Positions 31,402 through 63,392 of a stretch of DNA of 64,000 nt are shown here, piece after piece; position 1 is the stretch's first letter, and every line of letters begins with the position of its first letter. The translations under genes were made by a program, and so were the position numbers. The notes beneath the pieces are model-generated. The model searched no databases and was not told the DNA's origin. It saw nothing but the letters and a program-made list of their open reading frames with translations. Source of the stretch: Staphylococcus phage AH12; the sequence record OR455461.1; one strand, given 5' to 3'.

Positions 31402-32956
31402 TTAATAAATATAATCTTCGATGTCTATTTCATTTTGTTTAATTGTCATATCATGGAAAGACTTCATAGAGCTTGTTACAATTGCTTGAGCTACCTGATT
31501 GACTAATAAACCAATATTTTCTATACCTAATTTGTAAGGGAGTTCTCCTGCACATTTACTACAGATATCTTCACTTGCACAATACATAGGACTTCTGAAG
31601 TTCAATACTTTCCCAATATGCTCATCTACATTTGAAGTAGTTAACAGTGTTAATTGACCTTTTCTTCCTGAATTATCTTCAAAATATCTATAAAGTAAAA
31701 GATTCGCATTATCTTTAGTTAAAGTTAATTTTAATGTATGTTTTGTTCTACAATCAGAACCTTGTTTATCTAATACAGTTGTTTGGAAAGCAGACATAAG
31801 TTTTTTAGCTTGATCATTTTATTATCTATATTTTATTATAGATTAGACTATATCTTATGAATTTAATCATTTCTATATTTAGTCGTTGAACAACTTAATA
31901 AAGTTGATGCTAGTTAGTTTTTAACATTCTAGCAATTAATAGAATTTATTGTGAGCATCTAATTTACCCACCTTCTTGAGTCATTTATGTTAATCTATAT
32001 TAATTTAATATAGATCAGACTATATCAAAAACTCTTTATGAGTTTAATTATATTTAGTCGTTGAACAATCATTCTGATTGATGCTGATTAAGTTTATCTC
32101 TTCTCAGCAATTAATAATTTTTCTATTATTACATTACTATAATAAAGGGCATTCATATACCTAAAGCACGTCCAGCTGAACCAGCAGTCATAATGTCTCC
32201 AAACATATATAGTTCTTCTGGATCAATTCCATCAGCTAAAGAACTCTTAGCAATACGTATTTTACTAGGATCAGCGAAGTTTTTATTTGCTCCACGTATT
32301 AATGCAGTTAACTTGAAGTTATTTCCAAAACTACCTCTTGATCCACTATCATAAATATCAAGGTCTGCTAAACCTTCTAATTCTTCTTTACTTAACTTAA
32401 TTAATTCTTTTTCAATAGCACTAATAGCATTCAATTCTTCACCAGGAGTATTTAATGCTTTACCATATTTCTCTAGTAATTCTTCTTTCTTTTGTTTAAC
32501 TTTATCAGGAGCAACCATCATTGTAGTTGTCAAACTAGAATTAATAAATCCTGCTATAGAGAAACCAAGCCATTGAAGTTTATCAATATACATATTCATA
32601 TCTTTAGTTGTAATAACATCATTAAGTAATAAACTAGATAACTCAGATTGTAGATTTCCTACACCTGATCCTCCCATATCTTTATTCATATATCCTATAA
32701 TAGGTCCTATTTTATTGTCTAATATAAATTTATTAAATATATATCTTCCAACTGTTGTTCTTTCATCTTTACTATTATAAACTAAATCTTTTTTAAGTTT
32801 AAATCTATCGCTAGGATTAAACATTGGTTGTGTATTTTGTCTAAATGCAAATAATTCTTTAAGTTTATCAAGAGTAATATCTTCTTTTTTTATACTTAAT
32901 AAAGTTGATACTTCTTTCTCAGATAAATCTTTTTTATCATAAGTCATATTAACCAA
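31402..32956 (-). CDS. RNA polymerase beta-prime-like subunit, C-terminal half, interrupted by two group I introns; proposed exons 32956..32155, 31981..31962 (mini-exon), 31794..31402
   Basis: 'FRSPMYCASEDICSKCAG...IENIGLLVNQVAQAIVTSSMKSFHDMT' aligns to E. coli beta-prime '[21 protein letters not shown]...[25 protein letters not shown]'. 'KQGSDCRT' aligns to 'TEDDCGT'. Exon A ends GRALGI. The mini-exon restores 'YSRRWVN' (compare 'GYLTRRLVD'). The joined exons total 1215 nt and are in frame. Confidence 0.7.
31795..31961 (-). mobile_element. group I intron (beta-prime intron B), ORF-less, ~165 nt
   Basis: Minus-strand core elements are present: P AATTGCTAGAAT, Q AACTAGCATC, R GTTCAACGACTAAAT and S AGATATAGTCT. 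A 5' junction GGTAAAT|TAGATGCTC is also present. Confidence 0.65.
31982..32154 (-). mobile_element. group I intron (beta-prime intron A), ORF-less, ~170 nt
   Basis: Minus-strand elements are P AATTGCTGAGAA, Q AATCAGCATC, R GTTCAACGACTAAAT and S TGATATAGTCT. The 5' junction is GGTATAT|GAATGCCCTTTATTATAGTAAT and the 3' junction is ATAAATG|ACT. Confidence 0.7.
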
Positions 32957-33272
32957 TTTAATTTCACTTCTTTCATATATTATTTGTAATATTTGAATGT
33001 TATCGTCAATTTTATATTTTTGTAATTTATAAAAATATCTCGTAAAAAATTTGAAAACGCCCGGAATATTATATTTATATAATAATATAATTATTATAAT
33101 ATATTAAAATATTTAAATATTTTAATATATAAAAAATATAATATTAGAGGGGGTATATTTAGATTTTGATTATATCAAAATCTAATAAATTATTTCTTCT
33201 TAAATTACATAAGAAAGATAAAGAAAACAAGTACATATATAAATTTATTAAATGAAAGGAATTGAATAATAA

Positions 33273-36200
33273 GTGAAGTATCTTAATAGATTAAAGAATT
33301 TAAAATTCTATTCAATTTCAGGATATAAGATTAAAGCTATAGATGAAAATATTAAGGATCAAAAGAAAAACCAATTAATAATTTATAAAGGTTTTAAAGA
33401 AAATTCATTTATAGAATTCTTAAATAGTGGTATATTATATTATCAAAATTTCAAGAATATTTATACTCCTAGAATATATAGAACAGCAAATAGAAAATCA
33501 AGATTAATTACTAATATTTCAGATTATCAACAAGAAATTAAAAGTAAATCAATTAAATCTTATAGAGTTGAAAGAAATGAGAAATTATTTAAAGGAAGAA
33601 ACTATATAGTTGATTCAAGTAAATTTATCAATCTTGAAGATAAATCTTTAATGACTAAGAATTTTAAAACTGTATCAGATTCAATTAAAAATACTTATAA
33701 TAATTTAAATAATCCAGAAGAATATGAAAATTTATTATATGTAATTAATGTAGATGGATACAATAAATCTTCTCAAGAAGCTATTAGACCAAATACAAAA
33801 GATTTTATGTCAAGTTTATTTATGATGATTAAGAATCAGGAAGAATTACCTCATAAAGAAAATCAAAATGTAGTAGCTTTATTTATTTCTATTGAGAACG
33901 GTATAATGTTTAAATTTGATTTTAAAGATTATAATAAATTCAATAATAGATTAAGACAAAGATTAAGAAGAGCTATTGATTTAAATACACAACAAATAGA
34001 TACAGATGAAATTTCTAATGTTGAAGATGATGATAATACAGAAGCTATAGATTCAACTATTAAAAAGAAATCATTTAGCAATGTTAAAGATATTGATCCA
34101 GTTGAATTACAAGATAAGAATGAAGATGAAGTTAATCAGGATATTGAAGATTCTAAGATGGAAAAAATATCTAAGAAAATAGATGATACATTAAGATATA
34201 TTAAATCTAATGATAATATTGATATGGATATTAATGATGAATATAATATTGCAATGATAATTGAAAAAGAATTAAACAATAATAATGATCTTATTGATAT
34301 TGATGAAGATACATTATACAATGATGTACTTGATAAGAATGATTCATTTAAATCAATTAAAAGAGATATTAAAAATAAATCATATATTGGAGACACTGCA
34401 TTAAAGAATTCTAAAAAGATATTATCACTAGCTAAAAATCAAGATGAATATCTTGAAAAATTAGAAGATTTTAGTTTCTCTGAAGATAGTATTATTGATA
34501 GAGAAATTAATGAAAATGTCAATAGTATTAATGATGAAGCAATAAACAATGTATCTTCAAATGATTTTGACTTATCTTATATGAAAAAGACATTTAATAA
34601 AGACTTTGTAAATATTATGAAGAGTTTTAATGATAAGGAAGAAATACCAGTATTCATTAACAAAATGAATGTAGAAGATAATTCAGATTCTCAATCATTA
34701 AAGAATACTGTAAAAGTTCAATTTAAGAGTCCTGATGGAATTAACCATAATGTAAAATTTGATGTACCTAAAATTATTGATGGTAAATATTTAAAATTAA
34801 ATGGTGGTAAAAAGGTTCTAACTAAACAATTAATGATGTATCCTATTGTTAAATATAGACCAGATACAGTTTGGATTACAACTAATTATAATAAATTTAT
34901 CATTGAAAAATTTGGTACTAAAGAGAATTCTGAAACTGAATGGCTTAAAAAAGTTATTGAAGATAAACAAGTACTAGAATACATTAAAGATAAAAATGAT
35001 ATTAATATTCAAAAAGGTAACTCATCTTTAATTAATAAAGAATATTTAACTTCTGTGTTGTATAATAATTTATCTAAAAATATATTAAGATTCTCTAAAG
35101 ATGATTTGATAATTGATTTTAATCAAAGAAATCTTAAAAAAGTTATTTCAGAAAGTAAAACTTTAAGTGAAATTGATTATGATAAAGATAAATACTATCC
35201 TATCGGTTATAGTTCAAACAAATCTAAATTAATATTGTCAAATACTACAGAATCTATTATTTTTAAAGCTACTAAAAGTAATATAGAATCTATGAATATT
35301 AATATTACAGATTATATTATTGAACAACTTGAAGATAATATTGATTTTAGTCTAATAGATAAAAAATTCAGTAAAAATATTCAAGCTAGTAAAACAATGG
35401 CATTTTCTCGTGTTAAAATTACTAATAAATTAATTCCTACAATAGTATTATTAGGTTTCTATAAAGGTTTAACTAGTATTCTTGATCTTTATGAAGTTGA
35501 TTATAAGTTTGTTGAAGAAAATGAAAGAATAACTATTAAAGATAAGAAGAATAAAATTAAATTCCAAAATGGTTATCTTATTTATTCAACAGATAAATTA
35601 AGATATGATTTATTATTATCAGGATTAAATACTATTCCTACTTCACAATATGACTTTGAAGAATTTAATAGTGAAACACCTTACTTAGAATACTTTAATG
35701 ATAAGTTCTATAGTCGTAATGTTGGTAAAGGAATTAAAAATGCATTAGATTTAGCAATGGATCCTATTACAGAAGATGTATTAAGAGATTTAAAATTACC
35801 TGAAACTATGGTTGAGTTATTACTCTTAGCTAATACCATGCTAGAAGATGTAACTGCTAGAGAACACAATGACATGGGAATATATCGTGTACGTGGTCCA
35901 GAACAAGTTAATGCTTTAATGTATAAAATGATTGCAAATGCATATAAAGAATATTCTGACTCTTACAATAATAAGAATCCTAAGAATATTTCAGTTAAAC
36001 AAGACCAATTAATTAAAACTATTATGGAACAACCTACTGTAGATGAAGTATCTGATCTTAATCCATCTTTAGAGATTGATAAGATGACTTCAGTAACTTT
36101 TAAAGGTCCAGCAGGACGTAATAATGAACAATCATATGAACCTGATATTCGTTCATATAGTGAAAGTATGCAAGGCGTATTAGGAATATCTAGTCCTGAT

Positions 36201-38095
36201 AGTAATAAAATTGGGGTAGTTAGACAGCTTTCATATAATTCATTAATTAAATCTACTAGAGGTTATACTGATGGCGGTAAAAAAGATGCTAATGATACAT
36301 CTCTATACACTCCATTAGAATTACTTAACCCTTATTCTAGTAGACATGCCGATAATCAAACATGGATAGTCGGCTTAAAAACTATTTAATTGCTGAAATT
36401 ACTTTAAAGTTAATCAGCATCAATCAAATTGTTCAACGACTAAATAATAGATACTAATTATATAATTAGTAATGATATAGTCTCAACTATGTATAAAGTA
36501 TATAGAAATAAGATAATGTCTCCACGTATTGGAATGACTGGTATATGAATGCCCTTTATTATAGTAATATAATAATAGAAAAATCTTTAATTGCTGAGAA
36601 AATAATAATTAAGTTAATCAGCATCAATCAAATTGTTCAACGACTAAATAAGATTATACCTAAACGGTATTTGATATAGTCTCAGCTTTAATTTATTTTA
36701 AAGAAGTTCATTAAGAACTAATACACAATAAACAAAGTGTATTAAGATAATCTGACTCAAGCCAAGCACGTAATTCCAACAAAAACTAATAGTAAACCAT
36801 TAGTTGGATCTGGTGTTGATAAATCTTTAGCTTATCAATTATCAGATACATTTGCTTTTAAAGCTAAACAAGATGGTAAAGTATTAAAAATTAACGAGAA
36901 AACTGGTTTAATGACAGTAGAATATATCAATGGTGAAAAAGATATTGTTGATATATCTGAAAAATTAGCCAAAAACTCTAACTCAGGTTTTTATCAATCT
37001 AATAAACTTGATCCACAATTTAATGTAGATGACACTTTTAATAAAGGTCAAATACTTGCTAAAAATAATAATTTCTTTGCTGGATCCGGTAAAGATAATG
37101 ATATTCAATTTACTTCAGGTAAATTATCTAAAGTATCTGTAGCTAGCTCATATGGTATTATAAATGCCTTTCATTATAGTAATGTAATGTCAAAAAATTA
37201 TTAATTGCTGAGAAATATTAAATTAATCAGCATCTCTACATTTATAGAGTTCAACGACTAAATATGATTATTCATTAATACTAATGAATTTGATATAGTC
37301 TAATCTATTATAAAAATATAATAGCTAATATAAATGACTTATGAAGATAGTTCTATTATTTCTAGTAGTATGTCTGAAGCAATGTCTACTAAAGTTACTA
37401 TGAAGAAAACAGTAAATATTCCATCAAACACAAATATTCAATATATAGTTAAAGAAGGTCAGAAAGTACGTACAGGTGATCCTTTAATGATATTTGAAAC
37501 TTCATTTGATGAAGAAGGTATTGGTTCTTTATTAGATAAAATCGGTAGTGAATTTGAACAAGATATTCAAGATATAGCTAATCGAGCTGTTAGAAGTAAA
37601 TATACAGGTAATATTAAAAAGATTAATATTTATTATAATGATGATATTGAAAATATGACTGATAGTTTAGCTAAATTAGTTAATAATTACATTAAAAAAT
37701 CAAATGATAAATATAAAGAATATAAATCTGGAGTTAAAAATAATAAAGAAACTTTACCTGGTATTGATGTAGATATTGCAGCTGTAGAGAAAATTAATAC
37801 AGAGAAAATTAAAGGAGAAAAAGTTGACGGAGTTCTTATTGAAATCTTCACTGAATATGAAGATGATATGAGTGTTGGAGATAAAATTAGTTTCTACGGA
37901 GCTTGTAAAACTGTAGTTGCTGATGTAACTCCTCCAAATGAATCACCTTATTCTGAATATAGATCTGATGAAGAAGTTGAAGCTGTATTCTCTCCATTAA
38001 GTATTGTCTCTCGTATGACAGTTGATATTTATATGATGTTATTCACAAATAAAGCTTTAATAGAATTAAAACGTAAAGTAAAAGATATGGTATAA
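33273..38095 (+). CDS. RNA polymerase beta-like subunit interrupted by three group I introns; proposed exons 33273..~36383, 36513..36546 (mini-exon), 36747..~37160, ~37337..38095
   Basis: The exon-1 C-terminus 'GPAGRNNEQSYEPDIRSYSESMQGVLGISSPDSNKIGVVRQLSYNS' aligns to E. coli beta '[46 protein letters not shown]'. 'LLNPYSSRHADNQ' aligns to 'LIPFLEHDDANR'. Exon-3 'QAKHVIPTKTNSKPLVGSG' aligns to 'QRQAVPTLRADKPLVGTG'. The in-frame stops at 36387 and 37202 fall inside intron cores. Confidence 0.65.
36384..36512 (+). mobile_element. group I intron (beta intron 1), short-form 5' region, ORF-less
   Basis: P AATTGCTGAAAT lies at 36388, Q AATCAGCATC at 36412, R GTTCAACGACTAAAT at 36431 and S GATATAGTCTC at 36474. 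A P8-like hairpin is TACTAATTATATAATTAGTA. The 3' junction is TAAG|ATAATG. Confidence 0.6.
36547..36746 (+). mobile_element. group I intron (beta intron 2), ORF-less, 200 nt
   Basis: The 5' junction is GGTATAT|GAATGCCCTTTATTATAGTAAT. The P, Q, R and S elements lie at 36589-36683. The 3' junction is TAAG|ATAATC. The exon joins are in frame and give ...MTGIY|NLTQAKHVIP. Confidence 0.65.
37160..37336 (+). mobile_element. group I intron (beta intron 3), ORF-less
   Basis: The 5' junction is GGTATTAT|AAATGCCTTTCATTATAGTAAT. P lies at 37204, Q at 37226, R at 37250, a P8 hairpin is ATTCATTAATACTAATGAAT and S lies at 37286. The 3' junction is ATAAATG|ACT, analogous to beta-prime intron A. The exact splice sites remain ambiguous, since both 37336 and 37350 are possible 3' ends. 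Confidence 0.55.
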
Positions 38096-38185
38096 AATTT
38101 ATAAGATGATTAATATCTATTTAATCATCTTTTTTTTATTTTAACACTATAATATTAATAAACATATAGAAAAGAGGAAAATATA

Positions 38186-39448
38186 ATGAATTTGGAATCA
38201 TTGGAAGAATCATTAGATAAAGAATTTAATTTAACTAATGAAGAATTAGAACGTAAGGTAGATACTGATAAAGAAGAGCCTATTTGTGAGGATTGTGGTT
38301 CTAAAAATTTATCTCTTAACGAATCAAATCAATTAGTATGTGAAGATTGTGGTTCTGAGAACAGTAAAGTAGTCAAAGAAGAATTATTAACTGAAGGAAT
38401 TAGTGAATTCTTTGCTAAACATGATGTTAAGAAAATAACTAAAAAAGCAATTAAAAGAGGTGCTACTAAAGTTGTAGTTAAAGAAATTGCAGATTTAGAT
38501 ATGATTGAAAAACTTAAGAAAGATAGAAGAATCAAAAAGTTACTACCATTAATAGGTGTAGTTGGTATGGCAATAAATAAGAAAAGTCCAGCTCAGATCG
38601 TAGCAAATATCGCAATTATTGGGTTGGGTGCAGCACATAGTGAAATATCTTCTAAAACTGAAGCAGGTAAAGATAAAGGATTAACAATTACTTTCACTAA
38701 TGAGGAAAAAGAACTTGTTCAGTCAATTGTTTTTACAACCACTGGATTAGACTTTAATAAAGCTGATGTAAAGAAAACTATTAAATCTTATATTGATAAG
38801 AAAGATAAAGAATTAATTGTAGAAAATATGAATAAATTAAATGAGCTAGATGGTTTGATGGAAGATATTTATATTCAAGAAGGTAAAAAATTAGATAAAG
38901 CTAAAAAAGTGGCTAGAAAAATTTTTGTGGGATTAACTCCTGAAGAAATTAAAGAAAAATTTGCTATACGTGTAGCTAAAAAGAAATATAATATTGAAGT
39001 TAAAAAAGGCTATAAGATAAATTATTCTGACGCTAAATTGTTTACACATGCAACTACACGTAAGGATTCACATACTATAGATTACGAATTAAGTTTAGTA
39101 TTTTCTTTTACTAAACCTAATGGTAAGAAAAGTTTCTTGGATAGAAGCGTTTTCATTTATAATCGTTTCTCAACAATGCAAGAAGCTGTATCATTCCAAA
39201 ATAAACATGGAAAAGATTTATTAAAAATATTTAAAACAACTAAAGCAGATAAAAAACCTAAGAAATCTAAATCAGTTAATGAAGGCATGGAAGAATTAGG
39301 TATTAATGAAGATTTTGAAGACAAATTATTTGAATATTTAGAAGGCGTTACAGAGCAAATCTTATCTGAAGAAAATAAAGAAGAACAACAAACTAATGAA
39401 GATATTACATCTTTAGAAGAATCTTTAGATAAAGAATTCAGTTTATAA
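38186..39448 (+). CDS. hypothetical protein with N-terminal zinc ribbon (CEDCGSKNLSLNESNQLVCEDCGS) and matching terminal direct repeats SLEESLDKEF(N/S)L
   Basis: The 420-aa ORF is a paralog of the zinc-ribbon module in 40881-42797. The first 12 codons are repeated at the C-terminus. Confidence 0.5.
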   Translation: MNLESLEESLDKEFNLTNEELERKVDTDKEEPICEDCGSKNLSLNESNQLVCEDCGSENSKVVKEELLTEGISEFFAKHDVKKITKKAIKRGATKVVVKEIADLDMIEKLKKDRRIKKLLPLIGVVGMAINKKSPAQIVANIAIIGLGAAHSEISSKTEAGKDKGLTITFTNEEKELVQSIVFTTTGLDFNKADVKKTIKSYIDKKDKELIVENMNKLNELDGLMEDIYIQEGKKLDKAKKVARKIFVGLTPEEIKEKFAIRVAKKKYNIEVKKGYKINYSDAKLFTHATTRKDSHTIDYELSLVFSFTKPNGKKSFLDRSVFIYNRFSTMQEAVSFQNKHGKDLLKIFKTTKADKKPKKSKSVNEGMEELGINEDFEDKLFEYLEGVTEQILSEENKEEQQTNEDITSLEESLDKEFSL

Positions 39449-39449
39449 T

Positions 39450-44126: not shown

Positions 44127-44957
44127 ATGATTGAAATGTTAAATATAGGAAGTCTTAAATCATCTTTTCTATATAAAGGTGATAATTTAATTTATCCCAA
44201 TCCTATTAAAGATGGTTTAATACTATGGTATGATTTTGCAGGAATGAAAAATGATAGTGTTAATAAAAATATTACAAAAGATTTAACAAAGAATACAAAT
44301 GAAAGTGCTAAACACTTTAATTTTTTATACAATTCTCAAAGTGGATATAATAAAGGAATAAAGTTTGATGGTATTGATGATAGAATTATTCCAATAGCGA
44401 AACATGTAGATGATGGTACAACAGGTCAATTGGATATGAAAAAAATAAATAATGGACAACTTTTCTCCGTTGAAATGACAATAAAGATGTCTGACACGCT
44501 TATAGAACAAGGCTCAGAAATATTTATGACTAGTAAGACATACGGTAGATTTTGGTTACAATTTTTGAAAGATAATAACCACACTGAATCCGATGAGTTT
44601 GTTATATCCACTTCAACATATTATGGAAATGAAGGCGGAAGAAGTACTTACGTATTTAGTAAAGAAGAATCATATAAATATGGAGATGAATTTCATTTAA
44701 CTGCTACATTAGATAAAAATGATAAAATCATATTATATGTAAATGGAATAAAAAAAGACGAAAAACCTTTAGACGATATCAAAATTACAACTCCTCAAGA
44801 ACAAGACTTCTTAGTCTATATGGGTCAAGGAGATTCAAGTGCGTATTATCGTAGATTTGACCATGAACTATACTCAATGAAAATATACGACAGAGTTCTT
44901 ACTGAAGAAGAAATCCAATATAATTATCAATTAGAAAAAGAAAGATGGGAGTTATAA
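44127..44957 (+). CDS. LamG (concanavalin A-like lectin/glucanase) domain protein
   Basis: 'NPIKDGLILWYDFAGMKND' and a C-terminal 'YNYQLEKERWEL' are present. The protein is a paralog of the next gene. Confidence 0.55.
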   Translation: MIEMLNIGSLKSSFLYKGDNLIYPNPIKDGLILWYDFAGMKNDSVNKNITKDLTKNTNESAKHFNFLYNSQSGYNKGIKFDGIDDRIIPIAKHVDDGTTGQLDMKKINNGQLFSVEMTIKMSDTLIEQGSEIFMTSKTYGRFWLQFLKDNNHTESDEFVISTSTYYGNEGGRSTYVFSKEESYKYGDEFHLTATLDKNDKIILYVNGIKKDEKPLDDIKITTPQEQDFLVYMGQGDSSAYYRRFDHELYSMKIYDRVLTEEEIQYNYQLEKERWEL

Positions 44958-45688
44958 TTATGAGTATAATTAAATTAGGCAATGATCCCATATCTTTTGT
45001 TTATCAAGGTAATGAGTTGTTATATCCTAATCCAGTTAAAGACGGTTTATTATTATGGTATGATTTTAAAGGTATAAAGAATGACATGAATAAAGATGTT
45101 GCTATAGATTTAAGTGGAAACGAGAACAATGGGACTTTACAAAATTTTGCTTATACAAGCGATAGTGGATATGATGACGGATTGAAATTTGACAATATCG
45201 ATGATAGATTGGTTACAAATACTAATATTGAGTCTAATTCATTTACTTTATCTATGACTATTGATATAAAAAATCAAAAAGATATAAATTTTTTATTTGG
45301 TGGCAATATTTCTGCGTTTTATATGAGAAAAAATTACAATGATTTACACGCTTCTATTTTTACTGACAAACAAGTAACTTCTTCATCCGGAAATAAATTC
45401 TTCTATAATCTATTTAATGAAGGTAAATCAAAATGTCAGGTTATATTAAAAGTCGATGACGATAATAAGACACTTTCAATATTAGGTAATGGAATATTGC
45501 TTGATGAAAGAATATTTGAAGGTATAATAAATAAATGGAGGGTAACTAGTTTGGGAGCATGGTCATCATCATCTAATAATGACAATCTCAATGGTAAACT
45601 TTTATCATCCCATCTTTACAATAGAGCATTATCTCTAGAAGAAATAAAACATAACTTTGAGTTAGAAAAAGAAAGGTGGAACTTGTAA
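44945..45688 (+). CDS. LamG domain protein (paralog of 44127-44957)
   Basis: 'NPVKDGLLLWYDFKGIKND...DLSGNENNGTLQN' and a C-terminal 'HNFELEKERWNL' are present. The true start is probably the ATG at about 44960. Confidence 0.55.
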   Translation: MGVIIMSIIKLGNDPISFVYQGNELLYPNPVKDGLLLWYDFKGIKNDMNKDVAIDLSGNENNGTLQNFAYTSDSGYDDGLKFDNIDDRLVTNTNIESNSFTLSMTIDIKNQKDINFLFGGNISAFYMRKNYNDLHASIFTDKQVTSSSGNKFFYNLFNEGKSKCQVILKVDDDNKTLSILGNGILLDERIFEGIINKWRVTSLGAWSSSSNNDNLNGKLLSSHLYNRALSLEEIKHNFELEKERWNL

Positions 45689-55322: not shown

Positions 55323-55330
55323 CTACTTTC

Positions 55331-55789: not shown

Positions 55790-55858
55790 ATTGAAAATTC
55801 TCCATTCTATATAATTTTAAAATTTTATATCTATCAGTTATTATGAATTTTTAATTTT

Positions 55859-56134: not shown

Positions 56135-56210
56135 ATTTAAATTCCTCCTTAGTAATTTTTATATAATATACCAAACTCTAAAGTTAATTAGAGTTTGGTT
56201 AAATCAATTG

Positions 56211-58127
56211 TTAAATATCAAAATCAAATAATGGATCGAACATAGATTCATTATCTTTACTGAAAAATCCATTAGTTTCATCTGTAGTAAGCTGAGCACG
56301 AACATTTTCAAATATCAGTGAATGTACTGGTGAAGGTGAATTTAATATAGAGTTACCTACATTACGTAAAGTAATTTTAGGATTAAATTCAGGATCTTTA
56401 TATTTCACTCTATCTTCATATATCGTATCATTCAAGAATACCATATTACGAATAATAGTCTCTACATGTACTGACATAACATCTGTACCTGACTTTAATA
56501 ATAGATCCATTACATCATTAAACATTCTTTGATAATCTTTTTCTTCATAATCATTCTTAATAAAATTACTTCTTTCTAATATAGAACGAATTTTTAGAAG
56601 TGGATCGGCTACACCTTCATTTTTAATTTTAATATTAAATAAGAAATTCTCTCCTAAATCTTTCATATTAAATACATAAGCATTTTCATCTTCATTGTAG
56701 AATTTTTCAATTGAATCAAATTTCTGATCTGGTATTCTAAGAATAACAGGTGATTTAACTTCATGTACCTTAGTACCTATTTTAAATTTAAATGATTTAG
56801 CTTTATATTTTCCATAATCAATATCTTCATTAATAATCATATCATCTATAATAACTTTAGTTTTCTCATCACGAGGAATAATATTATCTCCAGAGAATTC
56901 AAAGTGTTCATTAAATATATCTGGCCATGAAAATTCAGAAAGTTGAACAGCTTGAAGATGTTTTGTTGAAAGTAATTTCTGTGTCATAGGTTCTGTTAAC
57001 TGTAATGTAGCTATGATACCTACTGCTAAATTTCTATTAATATCATATAGTCTTCTTCCATAACACACTTGACATATTTTACCATTCGGTTCAGCACATG
57101 TTATAGGAGATCTTAATGGTACAATTTGACCTATTAAATGAACATCATTTCTACTATCAATTAATTTAAATTCTTGATCATTATCATCATAATAGTATCT
57201 ATCATTAATACGATCTAATTTTTCCTTACTATCTACATTGAAGTAAAGTAAATGCTTACTACCACAATCATGATTATCTGATAATTTTAAATCTGAAGTT
57301 AATAATGTAATCTTACGATTTAAATAACCTGATTCTCTAACTTTATTCTTAGAGTTCATTAAAGCATTTAAAGAAGATTCTGCATCAATAGCAAATTGAG
57401 TTGTATTCTTTAATCCACGCATAAATGAAGTATCAATAATATCAGTAACAACATCTCCACGAATATCAGGTTTAAATCCTACAAAACTTAATACCTCATT
57501 CAATTGTATTTTATTTATACCTGTTCCAGATTCTAAGAAAGTTTTATAATCATTTTCTTTATCCATCTTAATATGTTTAATAAGATTATCCATATTAGGT
57601 TTTTGAACTTCATTAATAATTTGTTGATACGTTAAATTAGGATCAATATCTTCATTATCAAAGTTAATTAATCTTTCAATTTCTTTATCTTCATTAGCTA
57701 ATCTCATAATATCATATAAAGATATAGAAGGTCCATCTACAGGAAGTATATATTCATTTGAGAATATAGTAAGTTCATCAATGATATAAGCTATTGATTG
57801 ACTGATTTTAATAGGGTCATGTCCTTCTTTAATAAAGTTCACTACAATTTTATCAAAATAATCATAGTAATCATTAATATTAGTTGGATTAACTAAATAC
57901 TCTTCTGTAAATTCCTTATTCATTTCTCTAAAAGGTTTTCCTAAAATTAATAATGTTAAATAATTACTTTTAGAAATATTATCTTCAAAGTAGTCACTCA
58001 TTCTGTCTTTAGGGTTATTAATAATATCCTGCTTTAATTCTTCTATTATTTTATAATAATTATCCGAATGTAAATAGTTATTATATTTACCCAATTTTAA
58101 ATCTAAAACTAACTTTTCTTCACTCAT
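56211..58127 (-). CDS. second RNA polymerase beta-prime-like subunit, C-terminal half (paralog of 31402-32956, intron-free)
   Basis: 'ESGYLNRKITLLTSDLKLSDNHDCGS' aligns to beta-prime '[25 protein letters not shown]'. 'CAEPNGKICQVCYGRRLYDINRNLAVGIIATLQLTEPMTQKLLSTKH' aligns to '[42 protein letters not shown]'. Confidence 0.7.
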   Translation of the reverse strand: MSEEKLVLDLKLGKYNNYLHSDNYYKIIEELKQDIINNPKDRMSDYFEDNISKSNYLTLLILGKPFREMNKEFTEEYLVNPTNINDYYDYFDKIVVNFIKEGHDPIKISQSIAYIIDELTIFSNEYILPVDGPSISLYDIMRLANEDKEIERLINFDNEDIDPNLTYQQIINEVQKPNMDNLIKHIKMDKENDYKTFLESGTGINKIQLNEVLSFVGFKPDIRGDVVTDIIDTSFMRGLKNTTQFAIDAESSLNALMNSKNKVRESGYLNRKITLLTSDLKLSDNHDCGSKHLLYFNVDSKEKLDRINDRYYYDDNDQEFKLIDSRNDVHLIGQIVPLRSPITCAEPNGKICQVCYGRRLYDINRNLAVGIIATLQLTEPMTQKLLSTKHLQAVQLSEFSWPDIFNEHFEFSGDNIIPRDEKTKVIIDDMIINEDIDYGKYKAKSFKFKIGTKVHEVKSPVILRIPDQKFDSIEKFYNEDENAYVFNMKDLGENFLFNIKIKNEGVADPLLKIRSILERSNFIKNDYEEKDYQRMFNDVMDLLLKSGTDVMSVHVETIIRNMVFLNDTIYEDRVKYKDPEFNPKITLRNVGNSILNSPSPVHSLIFENVRAQLTTDETNGFFSKDNESMFDPLFDFDI

Positions 58128-58233
58128 ATCCTAATCTCTCCTTAATTATAAATAAATCAAATATTGTTACATATTTATAATATATAATTGAATAATGGTT
58201 TGTAATAAACCATTATTCAATTATTTTTATATC

Positions 58234-60708
58234 TTAAAAACTACTATCATCATCTGCATTATCATCGGAACCAAATGAATTATCATCATCAGAACCAAAT
58301 GAATCATCTTCGGATTTTTTTGATAGATCCTCTTCTCTGTTATCTTTTTCTATATCTTTTTTAACATTCTCAATAATATTTTCAAATCTATCATAAGATA
58401 AATTAGACATAAACTCTTGAGTTACTAATTCTTTTCTAAATAATCTCTTAAGTTTATCATTTTCAGTCTCGTCTTCAGTTTCTGGAGTATATAAAGGAAC
58501 TAAGAAATCTAACATTTGTGTTACTGCACCAACTTCTTCATTTAAATTACCTAAATTTAAAAATACTGGTGGTGGGAAATATGCTTCTATTTCCGATATA
58601 GTTCCTAATAGTTCTTCATAATCTTTTTCATCACTAGTTTCCTTATTCTCTAAATAATATAAACGTCTTAATACTTTAGTAAAGAAATCTCCAAATGAAT
58701 TTTGATAGTTAACTACTTTTCTTACAAAACCATTATTTTGCATTGCTAATGATCTTGCATAATCAGTTTCAGCTTCTGAATCAATATAATTCAAAGGTAC
58801 TCCTGTACCTGAAATAACAGATTTCTTAAGCCATTCTAAGAACTCATCATTAATATCAATTTGAATACCTGAAATGGTATCTATTTCTAAAGGTGTATTA
58901 CCGTCTTTATTCTCAGGAATGTACATGTTCTCTAAATTACCTACTTGATTAAACATTGTTTGAACTGATGTTCCATCTCCAAACATACCAGAAGACATTT
59001 CACTAGATCTTACATTACGAATAACTTCCTCTACAGTTCCTTCATAATCATCATCTAATCCAGATTTAACTCTAAATACACGTCTATCTCTTGACTGATT
59101 TATTTTAACCATCATGGTAGTAATTAATGTACTTAAATATAATTTAGCAAAGAATAATGATTTATATAATCTTGAAACTCCATATGTCTTTTGACTATCA
59201 AGTTTATGATGTACAACTTCTTCAGGTTCTAAGTAAGTTAATTTAACACCATTTTCAATAATATAATTTTTACGTATTAAACGATATATAACATCTTTAA
59301 ATGAATCGTTCTTATTAACAAAATCCATATCAATTTTCTGAGCTATACCTTTAACCATTACATCTACAAGACCTTGATAAGCCATCAATGTATTACCATT
59401 TTCAAAGTAAGAACCTGATGTAGCATTCATTCCAGCATTTGGATTTTTAGAATTCGTGGTTGTTCCTCCCATAGCTGAATTACCTGTAACAGGATCTAAA
59501 TTAGTTATTCCCATTCCATTTGACATAGAACCCATTTGGGATTGTTTTTGATATCCATCTCCCATAATACCGTTCATAGCACTTAATAAAGGATTTGCTC
59601 CTCCTCTAATATCAGTACCAGAATCAGGTTCAATATAAAGATAACCAATACATAAACCATCTACTTCTAATTTAATCATATCTTCTGGATTAACATTTCG
59701 GAAATATGTAGTTCCACCTTTAATCTTTTTATCTTTGTTACTTCCTTGAGCTTTATCTAAGAAAGATTGAAGGTCATTTGAACCTTTATATTTACCAACA
59801 TCAGAAAGTAATTCAGAAGAATTTTTAAAGAATTCTACATTTTCATTAATACTCTTAAGAATCTCATTTTTAAAATTTTCTTTTTGTAATTTAACATTCT
59901 TTTCATCTTTATATATTGATCCTTCATCAATATGATTATTTAATTCCTTAAGTAAGATATCTAAATCTTCATTATTAATTTCTTCATCTAAAAATGATTC
60001 ATTAATAACTTTAGCATCATCAACAGAAGAACTTTCTCTACCTAAAACATCATCGTTCTCAGTAAGTATTTCTTCAAAATCTTTTCTAGTATCTTTAATA
60101 ATATAGAAAAGGTCACCTAACATTAATCCTTCTCTTACTGAAGGATATATTAATTTATTTAAATCATATTTTTCCACAATACGATCTAATTCTCTTTTAA
60201 CTTTTCTATTCTCTTCATTATTTTCATTAATGTCAGATTTATATCTATACATTAATGATAATTTACTAGTATCATCAGGAGCTATAATTGAAGTTGAGAA
60301 TACATCTATACTAGAAGAAATTTCTGGTATAAATTTATCTATAATACGATAATCGTCATATCTAGATATTCTAGCTACTTCAGTACTAAAATCTTGATCA
60401 TCAATATTCTCTTTAATAAAATCATTAACAAAGTTTTGTCTATCATCTTTAGATACAGTTTTATTCTTTCTACTGTTACTCATTTCTTTAGCAGTAACCT
60501 TAGCACCTAAAGATAATAAATCTCCACCATTGTCATCTCTATGACTAGTTTTTCTTCTTATATTAGGTAATCTTTTATTAAAATCGTTAATACTATTTCC
60601 TAGTATTTTAGGATTTTCTTCAGGATCTAAACTTTTAATAATGTCTTTATTTAAATTATTAAAAGAATTATTTATTTTATTATTTTCATCAGCCAAATTC
60701 CATTTCAT
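58234..60708 (-). CDS. hypothetical large protein (824 aa) with Gly/Asn/Met-rich segment and acidic C-terminal tandem repeat (SFGSDDDN)x2
   Basis: The function is not recognised. A DNA tandem repeat of about 42 bp lies at 58240-58300. Confidence 0.5.
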   Translation of the reverse strand: MKWNLADENNKINNSFNNLNKDIIKSLDPEENPKILGNSINDFNKRLPNIRRKTSHRDDNGGDLLSLGAKVTAKEMSNSRKNKTVSKDDRQNFVNDFIKENIDDQDFSTEVARISRYDDYRIIDKFIPEISSSIDVFSTSIIAPDDTSKLSLMYRYKSDINENNEENRKVKRELDRIVEKYDLNKLIYPSVREGLMLGDLFYIIKDTRKDFEEILTENDDVLGRESSSVDDAKVINESFLDEEINNEDLDILLKELNNHIDEGSIYKDEKNVKLQKENFKNEILKSINENVEFFKNSSELLSDVGKYKGSNDLQSFLDKAQGSNKDKKIKGGTTYFRNVNPEDMIKLEVDGLCIGYLYIEPDSGTDIRGGANPLLSAMNGIMGDGYQKQSQMGSMSNGMGITNLDPVTGNSAMGGTTTNSKNPNAGMNATSGSYFENGNTLMAYQGLVDVMVKGIAQKIDMDFVNKNDSFKDVIYRLIRKNYIIENGVKLTYLEPEEVVHHKLDSQKTYGVSRLYKSLFFAKLYLSTLITTMMVKINQSRDRRVFRVKSGLDDDYEGTVEEVIRNVRSSEMSSGMFGDGTSVQTMFNQVGNLENMYIPENKDGNTPLEIDTISGIQIDINDEFLEWLKKSVISGTGVPLNYIDSEAETDYARSLAMQNNGFVRKVVNYQNSFGDFFTKVLRRLYYLENKETSDEKDYEELLGTISEIEAYFPPPVFLNLGNLNEEVGAVTQMLDFLVPLYTPETEDETENDKLKRLFRKELVTQEFMSNLSYDRFENIIENVKKDIEKDNREEDLSKKSEDDSFGSDDDNSFGSDDNADDDSSF

Positions 60709-60733
60709 CTCCTTTTTAGAATTTTTCCTTATA

Positions 60734-61519
60734 TTATATATTATAAATCAAAAAATCTAAATTTGCTATAAATTTATCTTGAGAAATTGAAAATTTTAGT
60801 AAGATAAATTCACTATATACATCTGTTTCCGGAGCAAAGATATCTACATGAACTTCAGGACAAACAATATTTCCTTTTGTAGTTTTATATTTTAATCCTA
60901 ATAAATATTTCTTTGAAGTTCTGAAATCAATTAAATAATCATCTTCATCATAAATATAATACGGTTCTCTTACAAACATTTCATTTTCAGTAAATACACA
61001 TTTAAAGAATTCAGAAGGTTTACATTCTTTAATATATAATAAAGATTTTTCATCTAAATTAAAAGAATAGAAAGGATCTAATTCTTTAAGAAATTTAATA
61101 GCATCTTCTGTATAATTATATTCTTCATTGATATTCTCTTCATTATGATAATCTTTATCATCAATAATTGTTTCTAAATCCGATTCTCTAGTAAACTTAA
61201 TACCTTTATTATCTTCATCATTAAAGAATTCTACTTTAATAATTTTATCAGCTTTATTAGTTCTAACTTGTATAAAATCTTCTACATTAAAACTACAATA
61301 CTCAATTGGAAGAAGATAATCATAAATTGGATTATCTTCTTTAATTTGTACATTAACATTATTAGGTATAGTTTCTAAATTAGAACCATTAGTAAATACA
61401 TTATTTTTGAAATCTATCAATTTACTTCCATTTTCAATATTATTAAATAATTTAGAAATTTCTTCAAAGGTCATGACTAATTTATTTACTATTTTACTTT
61501 CTTCAATTAAAATACTCAA
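60734..61519 (-). CDS. hypothetical protein; in the same frame as the upstream polymerase ORF, separated only by a single TAA
   Basis: The ORF has a TTG start. One stop codon (61520-61522) separates it from 61523-62806 in the same frame. Confidence 0.4.
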   Translation of the reverse strand: MSILIEESKIVNKLVMTFEEISKLFNNIENGSKLIDFKNNVFTNGSNLETIPNNVNVQIKEDNPIYDYLLPIEYCSFNVEDFIQVRTNKADKIIKVEFFNDEDNKGIKFTRESDLETIIDDKDYHNEENINEEYNYTEDAIKFLKELDPFYSFNLDEKSLLYIKECKPSEFFKCVFTENEMFVREPYYIYDEDDYLIDFRTSKKYLLGLKYKTTKGNIVCPEVHVDIFAPETDVYSEFILLKFSISQDKFIANLDFLIYNI

Positions 61520-61522
61520 AGG

Positions 61523-63392
61523 TTAAGCTCCTTTACTTTTTATTTTATCAGATACTTTCTTAGCTGCAACATTCAATGGAGGTAAACCATGAAATTCTTG
61601 AGCAAAGGATACACTATCTTGACTGTTAAATTTACTAATAAATTCAGTATTAAAGTCATAATTTAATTTGTCTTCTTCATACTTAGGAACTGTCATTGTA
61701 GATTTATCTCGTATTTGAATTTTACCTATGTGTCCTTCAGGAGTTATATTAAATCCTCTAATAATTGAAGGATATAGTGAACTCAAGTCAAAGTCACATA
61801 CATTACTAAATATTCTATTAGATCTAATATCTTTACCTTTAACTAAAATATCTCCCATACGTTCTATTAAAGTCATATTAGCTACAAATCCACCACGTAT
61901 TTTATCTGCATTTGGATCAGATAGTATTTTAGAGTGATTATTACTTAATACAAATCCTTGATTTTCAAAGAAGACAGAACTACGATTTCTTAAACAAATA
62001 GTTTTCTTAAGTGCTTTACTTGGTCTAGTTCTAGTCATATCTACAATAGAGAATAGTAAATCAAACATATTAGTGTTCTTCTCTATTAAAGCAGTTAATA
62101 TGGTATCTTTAATATTATAAAGAATGAATGTGTAATAATCTCTAAAATGTAAATCAGAGATAGAGCCTTCATATACATCCTTTTTAATTCCAGTTTCTTT
62201 TTCACCAACATCATTTAACTTAACTGATTCCATTACACCGTTCGGTTTATTCACATTTGCATATAAAGCTAATTGGTCAATCCAGTTAGTGTATGAGTTA
62301 GTTTCGAATGTAGATGATCTATTAGCTGCATCTGTAGCATTCTTATCTAATCTATAATAAGCTTTTTTATCTTGTAAATCTTTAGAACAGAAATAATCTG
62401 CTGGATCTTCTCCATTAACTTTAATTCTTTCAAATATAGTTGCAAAGTCAAAATCTAGATTCCATGCGGTACATATATCAGGCTTACTAATTTCATTAAT
62501 ATAGTATAAGAATGATTTAATAATTTCCATTTCAGTATCTAATTCATATATTTCAAATTCTAAACCTAAATCTTCTCCAATCTCACTATCTTTATTATTA
62601 TAAATATTATTTAGATCTTCCATTAATTTAGTTTTATCTGTCATAACTTCATTATAATTATCCGTATCATATTTTAATGCAAATGTTAAACATTTACGTT
62701 TACTCCAATCAACTACAGTTATAATATTAATTTCAGCCATTCCTGGTTCAGGGACATTTATATTAACTTCATACAATTGTATAAAGATTAGACTATATCT
62801 TATCAATATCAGTGATAATTATATTTAGTCGTTGAACACAATTAAATGTGATGCTGATTGTCTTTAAACTTTTCAGCAATTAATAATTTTTTAATTGAGC
62901 TACCTAAAACCCAATTACATTTGATCCATCTACCTCTATATCAAATAGACATATATCAATTCCAACTTTACTATCTAAGTTTTGTTTGATATATTCATTG
63001 ATATTATAATCTTCAATATTAATATCAGATCCATGAACATTATTCATTAAATGAAAATCTTTTAATTTTCTAAACTCTTCATAATTACCTGAAGATAATA
63101 TTCTATCGTATTCTGATTTATCTTGAGCATTACCTGCTTCTCTAACTATAGATTTAATAACATCTTTATGTTTACAATGTACAGTTCTAACTTTCTCTTT
63201 TGCCATAGAACCTACAACTTGACCAGGTGGTAACCAATATTCATCTTTAGTAACATAATAGTGCATCATTGGATCCACTATTTCCATATGTTTTTTAGTT
63301 CCATCTTCTTCTTTAACAACCATTACTACTTTTTCTTTTTTATTAGATGTTTCTTTTTTATTCAAATATGTTGATTTTATAAAACGACCCAT
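61523..63392 (-). CDS. family B DNA polymerase, N-terminal part (3'-5' exonuclease motifs I-III + polymerase motif A), interrupted by a group I intron; proposed exons 63392..~62906 and 62754..61523
   Basis: Exo I is 'LFDIEVDG', Exo II is 'TAWNLDFDFATIFERI' and Exo III is 'YYTFILYNIKD'. Motif A is 'DFDLSSLYPSIIRG'. Motifs B and C were not found in this window. Confidence 0.65.
62755..62905 (-). mobile_element. group I intron in polB, ORF-less, short-form 5' region
   Basis: Minus-strand elements are P AATTGCTGAAAAG, Q AATCAGCATC, R GTTCAACGACTAAAT and S AGATATAGTCT. The 3' junction ATAAATG|TCC matches the other introns. The first about 17 codons of track ORF 61523-62806 are intronic. Confidence 0.65.

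What the first reader, a model, noticed from the sequence alone, without database searches (positions are those of the whole stretch)
31795..62905. Six ORF-less mini group I introns with shared junction sequences suggest a common insertion-site preference
All six introns carry P (AATTGCTGAGAA), Q (AATCAGCATC), R (GTTCAACGACTAAAT) and S (GATATAGTCT). They are only about 130-200 nt long with no internal ORF. Four begin right after an exonic GGTA(T/A)AT, and three end with ATAAATG. The targets are RNAP beta, RNAP beta-prime and polB, all highly conserved catalytic genes. Similar introns invading RNAP genes have been reported for AR9. Here the near-identity between copies suggests an active, still-spreading element, possibly mobilised in trans by the free-standing endonucleases.
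Basis: partly seen in the sequence, partly recalled or inferred. Interest (0 to 1): 0.6.

Follow-up and report, generated by a model that had tools for sequence, protein, structure and literature searches.

The report
Six miniature group I introns
Six very small (151-212 nt), ORF-less group I introns interrupt the virion RNA polymerase and DNA polymerase genes of a Staphylococcus jumbo phage; they belong to a family with about 34 copies in the closest sequenced relative, and this kind of element is already known in such phages.

Summary
The six elements are real, and a covariance model finds exactly six in the window. They are group I introns. Each follows an exonic T and ends in G. Each has a guide sequence complementary to its own 5' exon. 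P3, P4, P6 and P8 covary strongly across 29 family members, and P7 carries the canonical R/S core. Removing them restores full-length ORFs collinear with the intron-less genes of phage S6.

- Lengths are 151-212 nt.
- Only GGT of the 'shared junction' is exonic; the rest is an intronic P1-P2 module.
- Copies are 57-81% identical, not near-identical.
- There is no single target. Only A and D share a 10-nt site, GGT^ACTCAAG.

The window comes from a Machias/PB50-like Staphylococcus jumbo phage. Machias has 34 family members and S6 has none. Phages that are at least 95% identical differ in which sites are occupied, and PB50 has perfect empty A and D sites. This implies recent gain or loss.

Sibling copies carry an I-HmuI-like HNH gene or TnpB (IStrons). 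Introns in these phages, and swarms of small introns in huge phages, are already published. Splicing itself is untested here. Verdict: new members of a known kind, moderate interest.

The parts
31982..32158 (-). Intron A (177 nt) in the virion RNAP beta' mid-domain gene, with P1, P2, P3-P9. It lies after exonic ...TTAGGT and ends ...ACATAAATG.
   Evidence: Spliced alignment to S6. The PB50 empty site is GGT^ACTCAAG. Model hit of 103 bits. Folds.
31966..31981 (-). 16-nt mini-exon ACTCAAGAAGGTGGGT (codes TQEGG) between introns A and B. Its 3' end is the P1 substrate of intron B.
31815..31965 (-). Intron B (151 nt), without P2. P1 is GUGGGU/GCUCAC. P4 carries a compensatory variant, UGCUAG/CUAGCA.
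   Evidence: (90 bits).
36354..36518 (+). Intron C (165 nt) in the virion RNAP beta C-terminal gene, without P2. P1 is GCCGAU/GUCGGC.
   Evidence: (79 bits).
36519..36542 (+). 24-nt mini-exon TCTCCACGTATTGGAATGACTGGT (SPRIGMTG) between introns C and D.
36543..36754 (+). Intron D (212 nt), with P1-P2 41/42 nt identical to A, P6-R 25/25 nt identical to C, and extra P9.1 and P9.2 hairpins.
   Evidence: (88 bits). PB50 empty site.
37157..37336 (+). Intron E (180 nt), with P1 (GGUAUU/AAUGCC), P2 and P3-P9.
   Evidence: (84 bits). Rfam RF00028 scores it only 15.9 bits.
62755..62908 (-). Intron F (154 nt) in the DNA polymerase exonuclease-domain gene, without P2. P1 is UAAUUGGGU/GCUCAAUUA.
   Evidence: (89 bits). 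The Machias intron at this site carries an HNH ORF in P8.
32159..32956 (-). Exon 1 of the virion RNAP beta' mid-domain gene.
31402..31814 (-). Exon 3 of the virion RNAP beta' mid-domain gene.
33273..36353 (+). Exon 1 of the virion RNAP beta C-terminal gene.
36755..37156 (+). Exon 3 of the virion RNAP beta gene.
37337..38095 (+). Exon 4 of the virion RNAP beta gene.
62909..63392 (-). Exon 1 of the DNA polymerase (exonuclease-domain) gene.
61523..62754 (-). Exon 2 of the DNA polymerase (exonuclease-domain) gene.
30119..31366 (-). Free-standing homing-endonuclease candidate (415 aa), 36 nt downstream of the beta' gene. It is a possible trans-acting mobility factor, but no link to the introns has been shown.
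   Evidence: phrog_3339 'homing endonuclease', E=4e-26. DUF7487 plus a weak REase_MTES_1575 match. Absent from Machias and S6.

Best explanation
The six elements are miniature group I introns, RNA enzymes that remove themselves from the pre-mRNA.

How each one works (inferred from the structure):
- A guide sequence 8-17 nt into the intron pairs with the last 3-9 nt of the upstream exon. This forms P1, with a U.G wobble at the cut site.
- The core is P3-P8 and P4-P6 with the P3/P7 pseudoknot. P7 holds the guanosine-binding G-C pair.
- This core catalyses two transesterifications. The intron's terminal G marks the 3' splice site.
- The result is intact mRNAs for virion RNAP beta', virion RNAP beta and the DNA polymerase exonuclease subunit.
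- The 16-nt and 24-nt mini-exons are joined in between. Each serves as the P1 substrate of the downstream intron.

Mobility (inferred): the introns encode no protein, so they cannot move by themselves. They most likely spread and persist at the DNA level. In mixed infections, an endonuclease would cut intron-less alleles and recombinational repair would copy the intron in. The endonuclease could be encoded by sibling intron copies or by free-standing genes. Recombination between copies would explain their mosaic structure.

Shown: the structure, the boundaries, ORF restoration and presence/absence polymorphism. Inferred: splicing itself and the mode of mobility.
For: Boundaries and ORF restoration:
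- All six introns follow a T and end in G, at positions where S6 is continuous. PB50 is also continuous at the A and D sites.
- Conceptual splicing gives ORFs of 408, 1421 and 571 aa with no internal stops. The S6 proteins are 408, 1417 and 573 aa, 80-85% identical.
- PHROGs names these products RNAP beta-type subunits and DNA polymerase.

Structure:
- On a structure-blind MAFFT alignment of 29 non-redundant cores, 95.9% of cells pair. Shuffled controls give 77.4% and slid registers 29-50%.
- 18 of 30 pairs change on both sides, with 143 compensatory cells. None of 500 shuffles reaches the observed values.
- Pairs with compensatory changes: P3 5/6, P6 5/6, P8 6/6, P4 2/6. P7 is invariant.
- RNAalifold finds P4, P6 and P7 independently.
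- In every one of the 24 family introns examined except one with an ambiguous junction (Machias TerL intron 3), a guide sequence pairs with that intron's own 5' exon; this holds for all six window introns.
- P1, P2 (A, D and E only) and P9 fold as expected.
- From my own knowledge, R and S closely match the Tetrahymena core (GUUCACAGACUAAAU / AAGAUAUAGUC).

Mobility:
- Occupancy differs among window, Machias and PB50, which are 95-97% identical.
- Machias holds 34 R motifs, all inside insertions relative to S6, and 30 model hits. S6 holds none.
- A and D share the 10-nt site GGT^ACTCAAG. They are both present in window, Machias and LY01, and both absent in PB50, SA1, S6, MarsHill and Madawaska.
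- Only 3 nt of that site can pair with the guide sequence, which points to recognition by a protein.
- The Machias intron at the F site carries an I-HmuI-like HNH gene in P8.
- A free-standing endonuclease candidate sits beside the beta' gene.
Against: - No RNA data: splicing was not observed.
- Rfam's group I model does not reach its threshold. It gave no hit at E<=10 over 6 kb and 15.9 bits against a cut-off of 50 on intron E alone.
- The introns are extremely small and only 19-23% G+C. P5 is vestigial and often not predicted to fold. B, C and F lack P2. No P10 pairing is evident. Unaided self-splicing is therefore uncertain, and protein help may be needed.
- No endonuclease has been tied to any of the six sites.
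- The free-standing candidate is absent from Machias, which also carries A, B, D and E.
- A test for co-conversion of flanking exons in LY01 and PB50 was inconclusive.
Confidence: 0.85

Rival explanations
1. The introns spread to new sites at the RNA level. The excised intron reverse-splices into any transcript carrying a short sequence complementary to its guide sequence. Reverse transcription and recombination then fix the insertion.
For: - Guide sequences and 5' exons are complementary at every site, and related copies sit after similar short sequences (...GGGT...CGAT...GAGT...GGT).
- The introns sit in many different genes.
- Machias-type phages encode an RNA-directed DNA polymerase (annotation).
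Against: - Short targets are far from saturated. The window has 8 uninterrupted GGTACT, 10 TGGGTA and 2 unoccupied GCCGAT.
- A and D share 7 nt of 3' exon that no part of the intron can pair with (inspection).
- A and D are mosaic, not whole-intron copies: 41/42 nt in P1-P2 but 63-75% in the P3-P8 core and 28/83 in the gap-rich S-P9 segment.
Confidence: 0.15
2. The mini-introns are non-autonomous relatives of IStrons (group I intron plus IS200/IS605 module). They would be moved or retained by the transposon machinery (TnpA/TnpB) of full-length copies elsewhere in the genome.
For: - Three Machias copies and one LY01 copy have the same intron core, followed by a tnpB gene and a G+C-rich 3' region. 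They end TTAACAAGACAG and sit after ...GGAT or ...AGAT.
- Intron C and several Machias minis sit after ...CGAT.
- The known IS605 IStron target motif is TTGAT, and free-standing introns coexist with IStrons in C. difficile (10.1101/2023.11.20.567912).
- ORF-less IStrons are known (PMC4227781).
Against: - The window has no tnpB.
- No TnpA transposase is annotated in Machias.
- The six minis lack the 3' guide-RNA-like module.
- By its known mechanism, TnpB cuts only the empty site matching its own guide.
- The cores of the six (UGCUGA type) are not the closest to the IStron cores (UGCUGG type).
- Rfam found no known guide-RNA family in the Machias IStron.
Confidence: 0.07
3. The introns are immobile relics inherited vertically from an intron-rich ancestor. 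Differences between phages reflect only precise losses, for example by recombination with spliced cDNA or with intron-less relatives.
For: - Orthologous introns in window and LY01 are 72-89% identical, about as diverged as the exons (81.5%).
- Paralogues are old, at 57-81% identity.
Against: - LY01's exons are 92-95% identical to S6, yet LY01 shares A-E with the window clade (82% to S6). Its nearer relatives S6, MarsHill and Madawaska lack most of them. Vertical inheritance would need many independent precise losses.
- PB50's empty A and D alleles have flanks identical to the window's exons.
- Sibling copies carry intact endonuclease and tnpB genes.
Confidence: 0.15
4. They are not introns. 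The genes are naturally split, as RNAP genes are in AR9-like phages, and the repeats are intergenic regulatory elements.
For: AR9-type RNAPs are encoded by several genes. PB50's GenBank annotation lists the pieces as separate CDSs.
Against: - Pieces of 16 and 24 nt cannot be genes.
- S6, SA1 and, at A and D, PB50 have continuous ORFs at exactly these points.
- The covarying group I core and the exon-matched guide sequences have no role in an intergenic repeat.
Confidence: 0.02

Closest known systems
[quoted passage not shown]
   Same: These are the same elements. Machias orthologues of A, B, D and E are 99-100% identical. The paper reports intron-disrupted RNAP, DNA polymerase, prohead protease, terminase and gyrase genes, with exon numbers that vary between phages.
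   Different: That work inferred introns from protein alignments only. In the text read here, no RNA structure, family analysis or copy census appears. The Machias GenBank record joins beta' mid as two exons, although two introns and a 16-nt mini-exon are present. The window phage has a different occupancy (C present, no endonuclease-bearing introns here) and an extra free-standing endonuclease gene.
Small group I introns of huge gut 'Jug' phages (Sci Adv 2026, PMC12880540)
   Same: Both involve many small, mostly ORF-less group I introns per genome that fragment essential genes and sit alongside stand-alone homing endonucleases. Jug phages average 18.5 per genome at about 206 nt, and metatranscriptomes support splicing for 37 of 76. 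The exact Q..R signature of this family occurs in 87 IMG/VR stretches, nearly all on 200-400 kb contigs, with full-length model hits in clusters.
   Different: The host and phage lineage differ. Whether the IMG/VR contigs are Jug phages was not tested. The introns here are shorter (151-212 nt; 143-183 nt for the ORF-less Machias copies with clean boundaries).
Group I introns of Bacillus jumbo phage AR9/PBS1 RNAP genes
   Same: Same gene class and same phage group. The AR9 virion RNAP beta gene is annotated with six exons and an HNH endonuclease. It gives one hit to the family model, at 43.6 bits and E=2e-5.
   Different: The AR9 hit is a distant relative: a 191-nt core at 41% G+C. blastn finds no AR9 match to introns B or E.
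Classical phage group I introns (T4 td/nrdB/sunY; SPO1/SP82 DNA polymerase intron with I-HmuI; Twort)
   Same: They share the same kind of ribozyme and a preference for conserved nucleotide-metabolism and polymerase genes. The Machias twin of intron F encodes an I-HmuI-like HNH endonuclease (NUMOD4 + HNH_3 + I-HmuI NUMOD-like) in P8.
   Different: From my own knowledge, the classical introns are about 250 nt or more without their ORF and carry peripheral helices (P7.1/P7.2 in subgroup IA2). Here a single hairpin lies between P3' and P7', P5 is vestigial and half the copies lack P2. The subgroup was not assigned.
IStrons (CdISt1, BcISt1, CboIStron; PMC4227781 and 10.1101/2023.11.20.567912)
   Same: Sibling copies in Machias and LY01 have IStron architecture: this intron core, then tnpB, then a structured 3' end that ends at the 3' splice site. 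ORF-less derivatives and free-standing introns coexist with IStrons in bacteria.
   Different: The six window introns have no IS module and the window has no tnpB. In the searched library, no paper mentions IStrons together with jumbo or Staphylococcus phages.
'Collaborative homing' of ORF-less introns by free-standing endonucleases (reviewed in PMC4227781, discussion)
   Same: An ORF-less intron lies in a conserved gene with a free-standing endonuclease gene next door (30119-31366, 36 nt from beta').
   Different: Nothing shows that this endonuclease cuts the A or B empty sites. Machias keeps A and B without it.

Membership tests
Group I intron | Conserved core helices P3, P4, P6, P7 and P8, with the P3/P7 pseudoknot | tested here: met
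   95.9% of cells paired, 18/30 pairs with compensatory changes, 0/500 shuffles as high. Slid registers give 29-50%. The alignment was made by MAFFT without structural input.
Group I intron | P1 formed by an internal guide sequence and the 5' exon, with U at -1 paired to G | tested here: met
   all six have U at -1 and 3-9 bp of exon-guide pairing. The guide differs wherever the exon differs.
Group I intron | Terminal guanosine (omega-G) at the 3' splice site and precise restoration of the reading frame | tested here: met
   all six end in G. The spliced ORFs have no stops and are collinear with S6.
Group I intron | Guanosine-binding site in P7 (G-C pair next to a bulged nucleotide) and conserved J8/7 | tested here: met
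   A(C)GACUA / UAGUCU and GAUA are invariant in 29/29 copies. The match to the canonical core rests on my own knowledge of the Tetrahymena sequence. Function was not tested.
Group I intron | Score above Rfam RF00028's gathering threshold | tested here: not met
   No hit at gathering or at E<=10 on 6 kb. 15.9 bits against 50 on intron E alone. I read this as limited model sensitivity for miniature AT-rich introns.
Group I intron | GTP-dependent self-splicing | not testable with these tools
   Needs RT-PCR or RNA-seq, or in vitro splicing.
Group I intron subgroup IA2 (typical of phage introns and IStrons) | Extra helices P7.1/P7.2 between P3' and P8 | tested here: not met
   Only one hairpin of 16-22 nt lies between P3' and J8/7 in all six. 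The definition of IA2 is from my own knowledge.
Mobile group I intron with homing endonuclease | Endonuclease ORF in a peripheral loop | tested here: not met
   The longest stop-free stretch is 19-44 codons. Siblings in Machias and MarsHill do carry ORFs.
IStron | Group I intron fused to an IS200/IS605 or IS607 module (tnpA and/or tnpB, guide-RNA region) | tested here: not met
   The window has no tnpB (tblastn) and the six introns are 151-212 nt. The feature is met by three Machias copies and one LY01 copy.

The most novel reading that the evidence does not exclude
The 143-212-nt ORF-less members of this family would be the smallest naturally self-splicing group I ribozymes, with a P3-to-P7 core of only 89-116 nt. 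They would form one evolving population with endonuclease-bearing and TnpB-bearing (IStron) copies in virulent jumbo phages. Short modules (P1-P2, P6, P8) would be exchanged between copies to retarget them to new conserved sites, such as GGT^ACTCAAG in both RNAP beta and beta'.
Probability: 0.2. Interest if true: 0.65.

Novelty: new member of a known kind. Interest (0 to 1): 0.4.

Why it matters
- Annotation. Standard tools miss these introns: Rfam scores them far below threshold, and public records split or truncate the genes and overlook 6-24-nt mini-exons. Essential RNAP and polymerase genes of Staphylococcus jumbo phages, which are candidates for therapy and are known transducers, are therefore mis-annotated.
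- Ribozyme biology. If they self-splice, ribozymes of about 150 nt with a roughly 100-nt core and about 20% G+C would be useful minimal group I scaffolds.
- Mobile-element biology. Closely related phages offer natural filled and empty alleles (window against PB50 at A and D). This is a ready system for testing how ORF-less introns spread, and how endonuclease-bearing, TnpB-bearing and naked copies of one intron family interact.

Tried and rejected
- Rfam over the whole window at gathering found only two tRNAs. At E<=10 on 31500-37600 it found no group I hit. On intron E alone it gave a sub-threshold 15.9 bits.
- The possible seventh copies, at 8783-8987 (+) and about 45850 (-), were rejected: the model scores them at or below 15 bits.
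- Pfam on the spliced proteins found nothing useful. PHROGs was used instead.
- tblastn of Machias TnpB against the window found nothing.
- Rfam on a Machias IStron found no known guide-RNA family.
- The window's free-standing endonuclease has no homologue in Machias or S6.
- Genome-collection scans: the Q..R signature gave 0 hits. R..S with short spacing gave one hit, in an Elusimicrobiota MAG, which was not followed up.
- The R..S motif alone is not family-specific. It matches many unrelated viral contigs, including giant-virus bins.
- The co-conversion test on the beta' exons of LY01 and PB50 showed no clear donor-type tract and was inconclusive.
- No P10 pairing with the 3' exon was found by inspection.
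- Literature searches for the smallest known group I intron returned nothing usable. The size comparison therefore rests on my own knowledge.
- F is not a simple deletion of the Machias HNH-bearing intron. P6 and the P8 stem differ, while the 5' and 3' thirds are 97-99% identical.


Full report
**Source of the window.** A 7-kb query from the window matches Staphylococcus jumbo phages: Machias at 97.1% and vB_StaM_PB50 at 95.4%. LY01, MarsHill, Madawaska, S6, PALS_2, DC4 and SA1 match at about 80-83%. These are AR9-like phages in which intron-disrupted RNAP, polymerase and other genes have been reported from protein alignments (bioRxiv 10.1101/2020.12.14.422802).

**The observation.**
- R (GTTCAACGACTAAAT) is exact at six places, against 0.21 expected by chance. 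S is exact at the same six.
- Q is exact in five and P in three.
- Copy B's variants of P and Q compensate each other (UGCUAG/CUAGCA).
- A covariance model built from the family, run over the whole window with filters off, returns exactly these six at 79-103 bits. Nothing else scores above 16 bits.

**Boundaries.** Phage S6 has uninterrupted genes for virion RNAP beta' mid (1227 nt), virion RNAP beta C-terminal (4254 nt) and the polymerase exonuclease subunit (1722 nt). Alignment and a spliced-alignment script place the introns as follows:

| Intron | Coordinates | Strand | Length |
|---|---|---|---|
| A | 32158..31982 | - | 177 nt |
| B | 31965..31815 | - | 151 nt |
| C | 36354..36518 | + | 165 nt |
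| D | 36543..36754 | + | 212 nt |
| E | 37157..37336 | + | 180 nt |
| F | 62908..62755 | - | 154 nt |

- All six follow a T and end in G.
- A and B are separated by a 16-nt mini-exon, and C and D by a 24-nt one.
- PB50 is 95% identical to the window and has continuous GGTACTCAAG at both the A and D sites, with flanks identical to the window's exons.
- Removing the six gives ORFs of 408, 1421 and 571 aa without stops. The S6 proteins are 408, 1417 and 573 aa. PHROGs identifies them as RNAP beta-type subunits and DNA polymerase. Pfam does not recognise them.
An exon running through to that GGT would include the in-frame stop TAG. The guide sequence GCUCAAUUA pairs with ...UAAUUGGGU, which places the 5' splice site after GGGT.

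**Structure.**
- I aligned 29 non-redundant cores with MAFFT, six from the window and 23 from Machias. I then counted pairs for a structure I named: P3, P4, P6, P7 and P8, with P3 and P7 crossing.
- 95.9% of cells pair, against 77.4% in shuffles and 29-50% in slid registers.
- 18 of 30 pairs change on both sides, with 143 compensatory cells. No shuffle out of 500 reaches any observed measure.
- P3 joins segments about 80 nt apart and takes more than a dozen different 6-bp forms. P7 and J8/7 are invariant.
- From my own knowledge, this core closely matches the canonical group I core (Tetrahymena GUUCACAGACUAAAU...AAGAUAUAGUC).
- In the 24 family introns examined (all six window introns among them), every one but Machias TerL intron 3, whose junction is ambiguous, has a guide sequence matched to its own exon. 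Examples are GGU/GCC, GUGGGU/GCUCAC, GCCGAU/GUCGGC, UGAGAGU/GCUCUCA and CACCU/GGGUG. At the C site in LY01 the exon is GCGGAU and the guide GUUCGC.
- P2 is present only in A, D and E. P9 is present in all, and D adds two more 3' hairpins.
- P5 is short and often not predicted to fold. I found no P10.
- The core from P3 to P7 spans only 89-116 nt.
- Rfam's RF00028 misses these introns and gives 15.9 bits against a cut-off of 50 on E alone.

**What the shared junction is.**
- Only GGT is exonic.
- The sequence ATATGAATGCCCTTTATTATAGTAAT... is the intronic P1-P2 module. It is 41/42 nt identical between A and D, but the rest of those two introns is 63-75% identical or less. D shares 25/25 nt of P6-R with its neighbour C. 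The copies are therefore mosaics.
- Overall, paralogues are 57-81% identical. 'Near-identity' holds only for the core motifs.
- A and D do share a real 10-nt target, GGT^ACTCAAG. It encodes G-TQ in both beta' and beta. It occurs uninterrupted 0 times in the window, 0 times in Machias and once in S6, at the empty A site.
- A and D are both present in window, Machias and LY01. Both are absent in PB50, SA1, S6, MarsHill and Madawaska.
- Only three exon bases can pair with the guide sequence there. I therefore favour recognition by a protein endonuclease, but this is inference.
- Short motifs such as GGTACT, TGGGTA and GCCGAT have many unoccupied copies.

**The family.**

*Copy numbers*
- Machias contains 34 R motifs, all inside insertions relative to S6, and 30 model hits.
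- They lie in both RNAPs (seven subunit genes), prohead protease, terminase, NrdE, both DNA polymerase genes, gyrB and two virion or hypothetical genes.
- Several introns are in tandem, with mini-exons as short as 6 nt.
- S6 has no model hit in 267 kb.
- blastn finds the family only in Machias, PB50, LY01, MarsHill and Madawaska among 50,697 phage records.

*Copies that carry genes*
- An I-HmuI-like HNH gene sits in P8 of the Machias twin of F.
- Other ORFs lie upstream of R in further Machias copies.
- TnpB, followed by a structured 3' end, occurs in three Machias copies and one LY01 copy. This is the IStron architecture.

*Site occupancy*
- Occupancy at the window's sites is patchy.
- LY01's exons are 92-95% identical to S6, yet it has A-E, while S6 has none and MarsHill and Madawaska have few.
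- Within 25 nt of the beta gene, three different sites are used in different phages: S6 positions 3069, 3086 and 3093.

*Wider distribution*
- The exact Q..R signature is absent from 185,579 representative bacterial and archaeal genomes.
- It occurs in 87 IMG/VR stretches, almost all on contigs of 200-400 kb, where full-length model hits cluster densely.
- A published study of huge gut phages reports the same kind of swarm, about 206 nt each and 18.5 per genome, with metatranscriptome support for splicing (PMC12880540).
- AR9's beta gene gives one distant model hit.

**Mechanism and rivals.**
- That these are splicing group I introns is well supported by comparative evidence, but no RNA data were seen.
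- Mobility is inferred. I favour endonuclease-dependent homing in mixed infections plus recombination among copies.
- A free-standing endonuclease candidate lies 36 nt from the beta' gene. It is absent from Machias and S6 and is not tied to any site.
- Reverse splicing, IStron-type mobilisation and pure vertical inheritance with loss remain possible at lower probability. A co-conversion test was inconclusive.
- The split-gene or intergenic-repeat reading is excluded by the mini-exons and the empty alleles.

**Novelty.** Introns in these phages are published, and so are swarms of small introns in huge phages. This analysis adds:
- the RNA structure and exact boundaries;
- the mini-exons, which public annotations miss (for example, Machias beta' mid is joined as two exons);
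- the census of 34 copies in Machias against none in S6;
- the mosaic modules and the shared A/D target;
- the link to HNH-bearing and TnpB-bearing siblings.

In the searched library, no paper mentions IStrons together with jumbo or Staphylococcus phages. From my own knowledge, the smallest well-studied self-splicing group I intron is about 205 nt (Azoarcus). Functional introns of 151-165 nt would therefore be notable, but I could not check a size record.

Noticed in passing
window 29517-29605 (-) and 29964-30035 (-): There are two tRNA-like genes. The first has about 14 extra nucleotides in the anticodon loop, and ARAGORN cannot name either anticodon. Machias annotates the homologues as tRNA-Asn pseudogenes.
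   Followed up: no
window 30119-31366 (-): A 415-aa free-standing homing-endonuclease candidate (phrog_3339, E=4e-26; DUF7487; weak PD-(D/E)xK-type REase match) is inserted between the beta' gene and the tRNA-like genes. It has no homologue in Machias or S6.
   Followed up: partly
Machias L007:28816-30457 (-), L010:9526-11178 (+), L010:~31907-33552 (+); LY01 L018 in the virion RNAP beta gene at S6 position 1581: These copies have IStron architecture: the same intron core, then a 398-402-aa TnpB (HTH_OrfB_IS605 + OrfB_IS605 + Cas12f1-like TNB), then a G+C-rich 3' region that ends at the 3' splice site. They sit after ...GGAT or ...AGAT in a virion protein gene, a hypothetical gene, gyrB and the RNAP beta gene. 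No paper in the searched library mentions IStrons together with jumbo or Staphylococcus phages.
   Followed up: partly
Machias L006:2799-3166 and L001 (beta' mid CDS): Public annotation misses tandem introns and mini-exons. The non-virion RNAP beta' N CDS stops at 2822, although two introns separated by a 6-nt mini-exon (GCCGAT) and a further exon follow. Beta' mid is joined as two exons, although there are two introns and a 16-nt mini-exon.
   Followed up: partly
window 38242-38858 and 44282-45662: These stretches have no megablast match in Machias. The second holds two ORFs (44127-44957 and 44945-45688) with weak similarity to virion structural proteins.
   Followed up: no
MarsHill L003 and Madawaska L019, beta' A site: The empty A site reads GGAACTCAAG rather than GGTACTCAAG. 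This is a synonymous change that removes the U needed at -1 of a group I 5' splice site. It could make the allele refractory to this intron.
   Followed up: no
IMG/VR loci L036, L057, L069, L090 and others: Full-length matches to the family core are densely clustered on huge-phage contigs of 230-400 kb, up to about nine within 6 kb. In L090 they fragment a gene on the minus strand, next to HNH-like ORFs.
   Followed up: partly
L142 (Elusimicrobiota MAG contig DATLOS010000560.1) 3441-3494: This was the only hit in the representative bacterial and archaeal genomes to the R..S pattern with short spacing.
   Followed up: no
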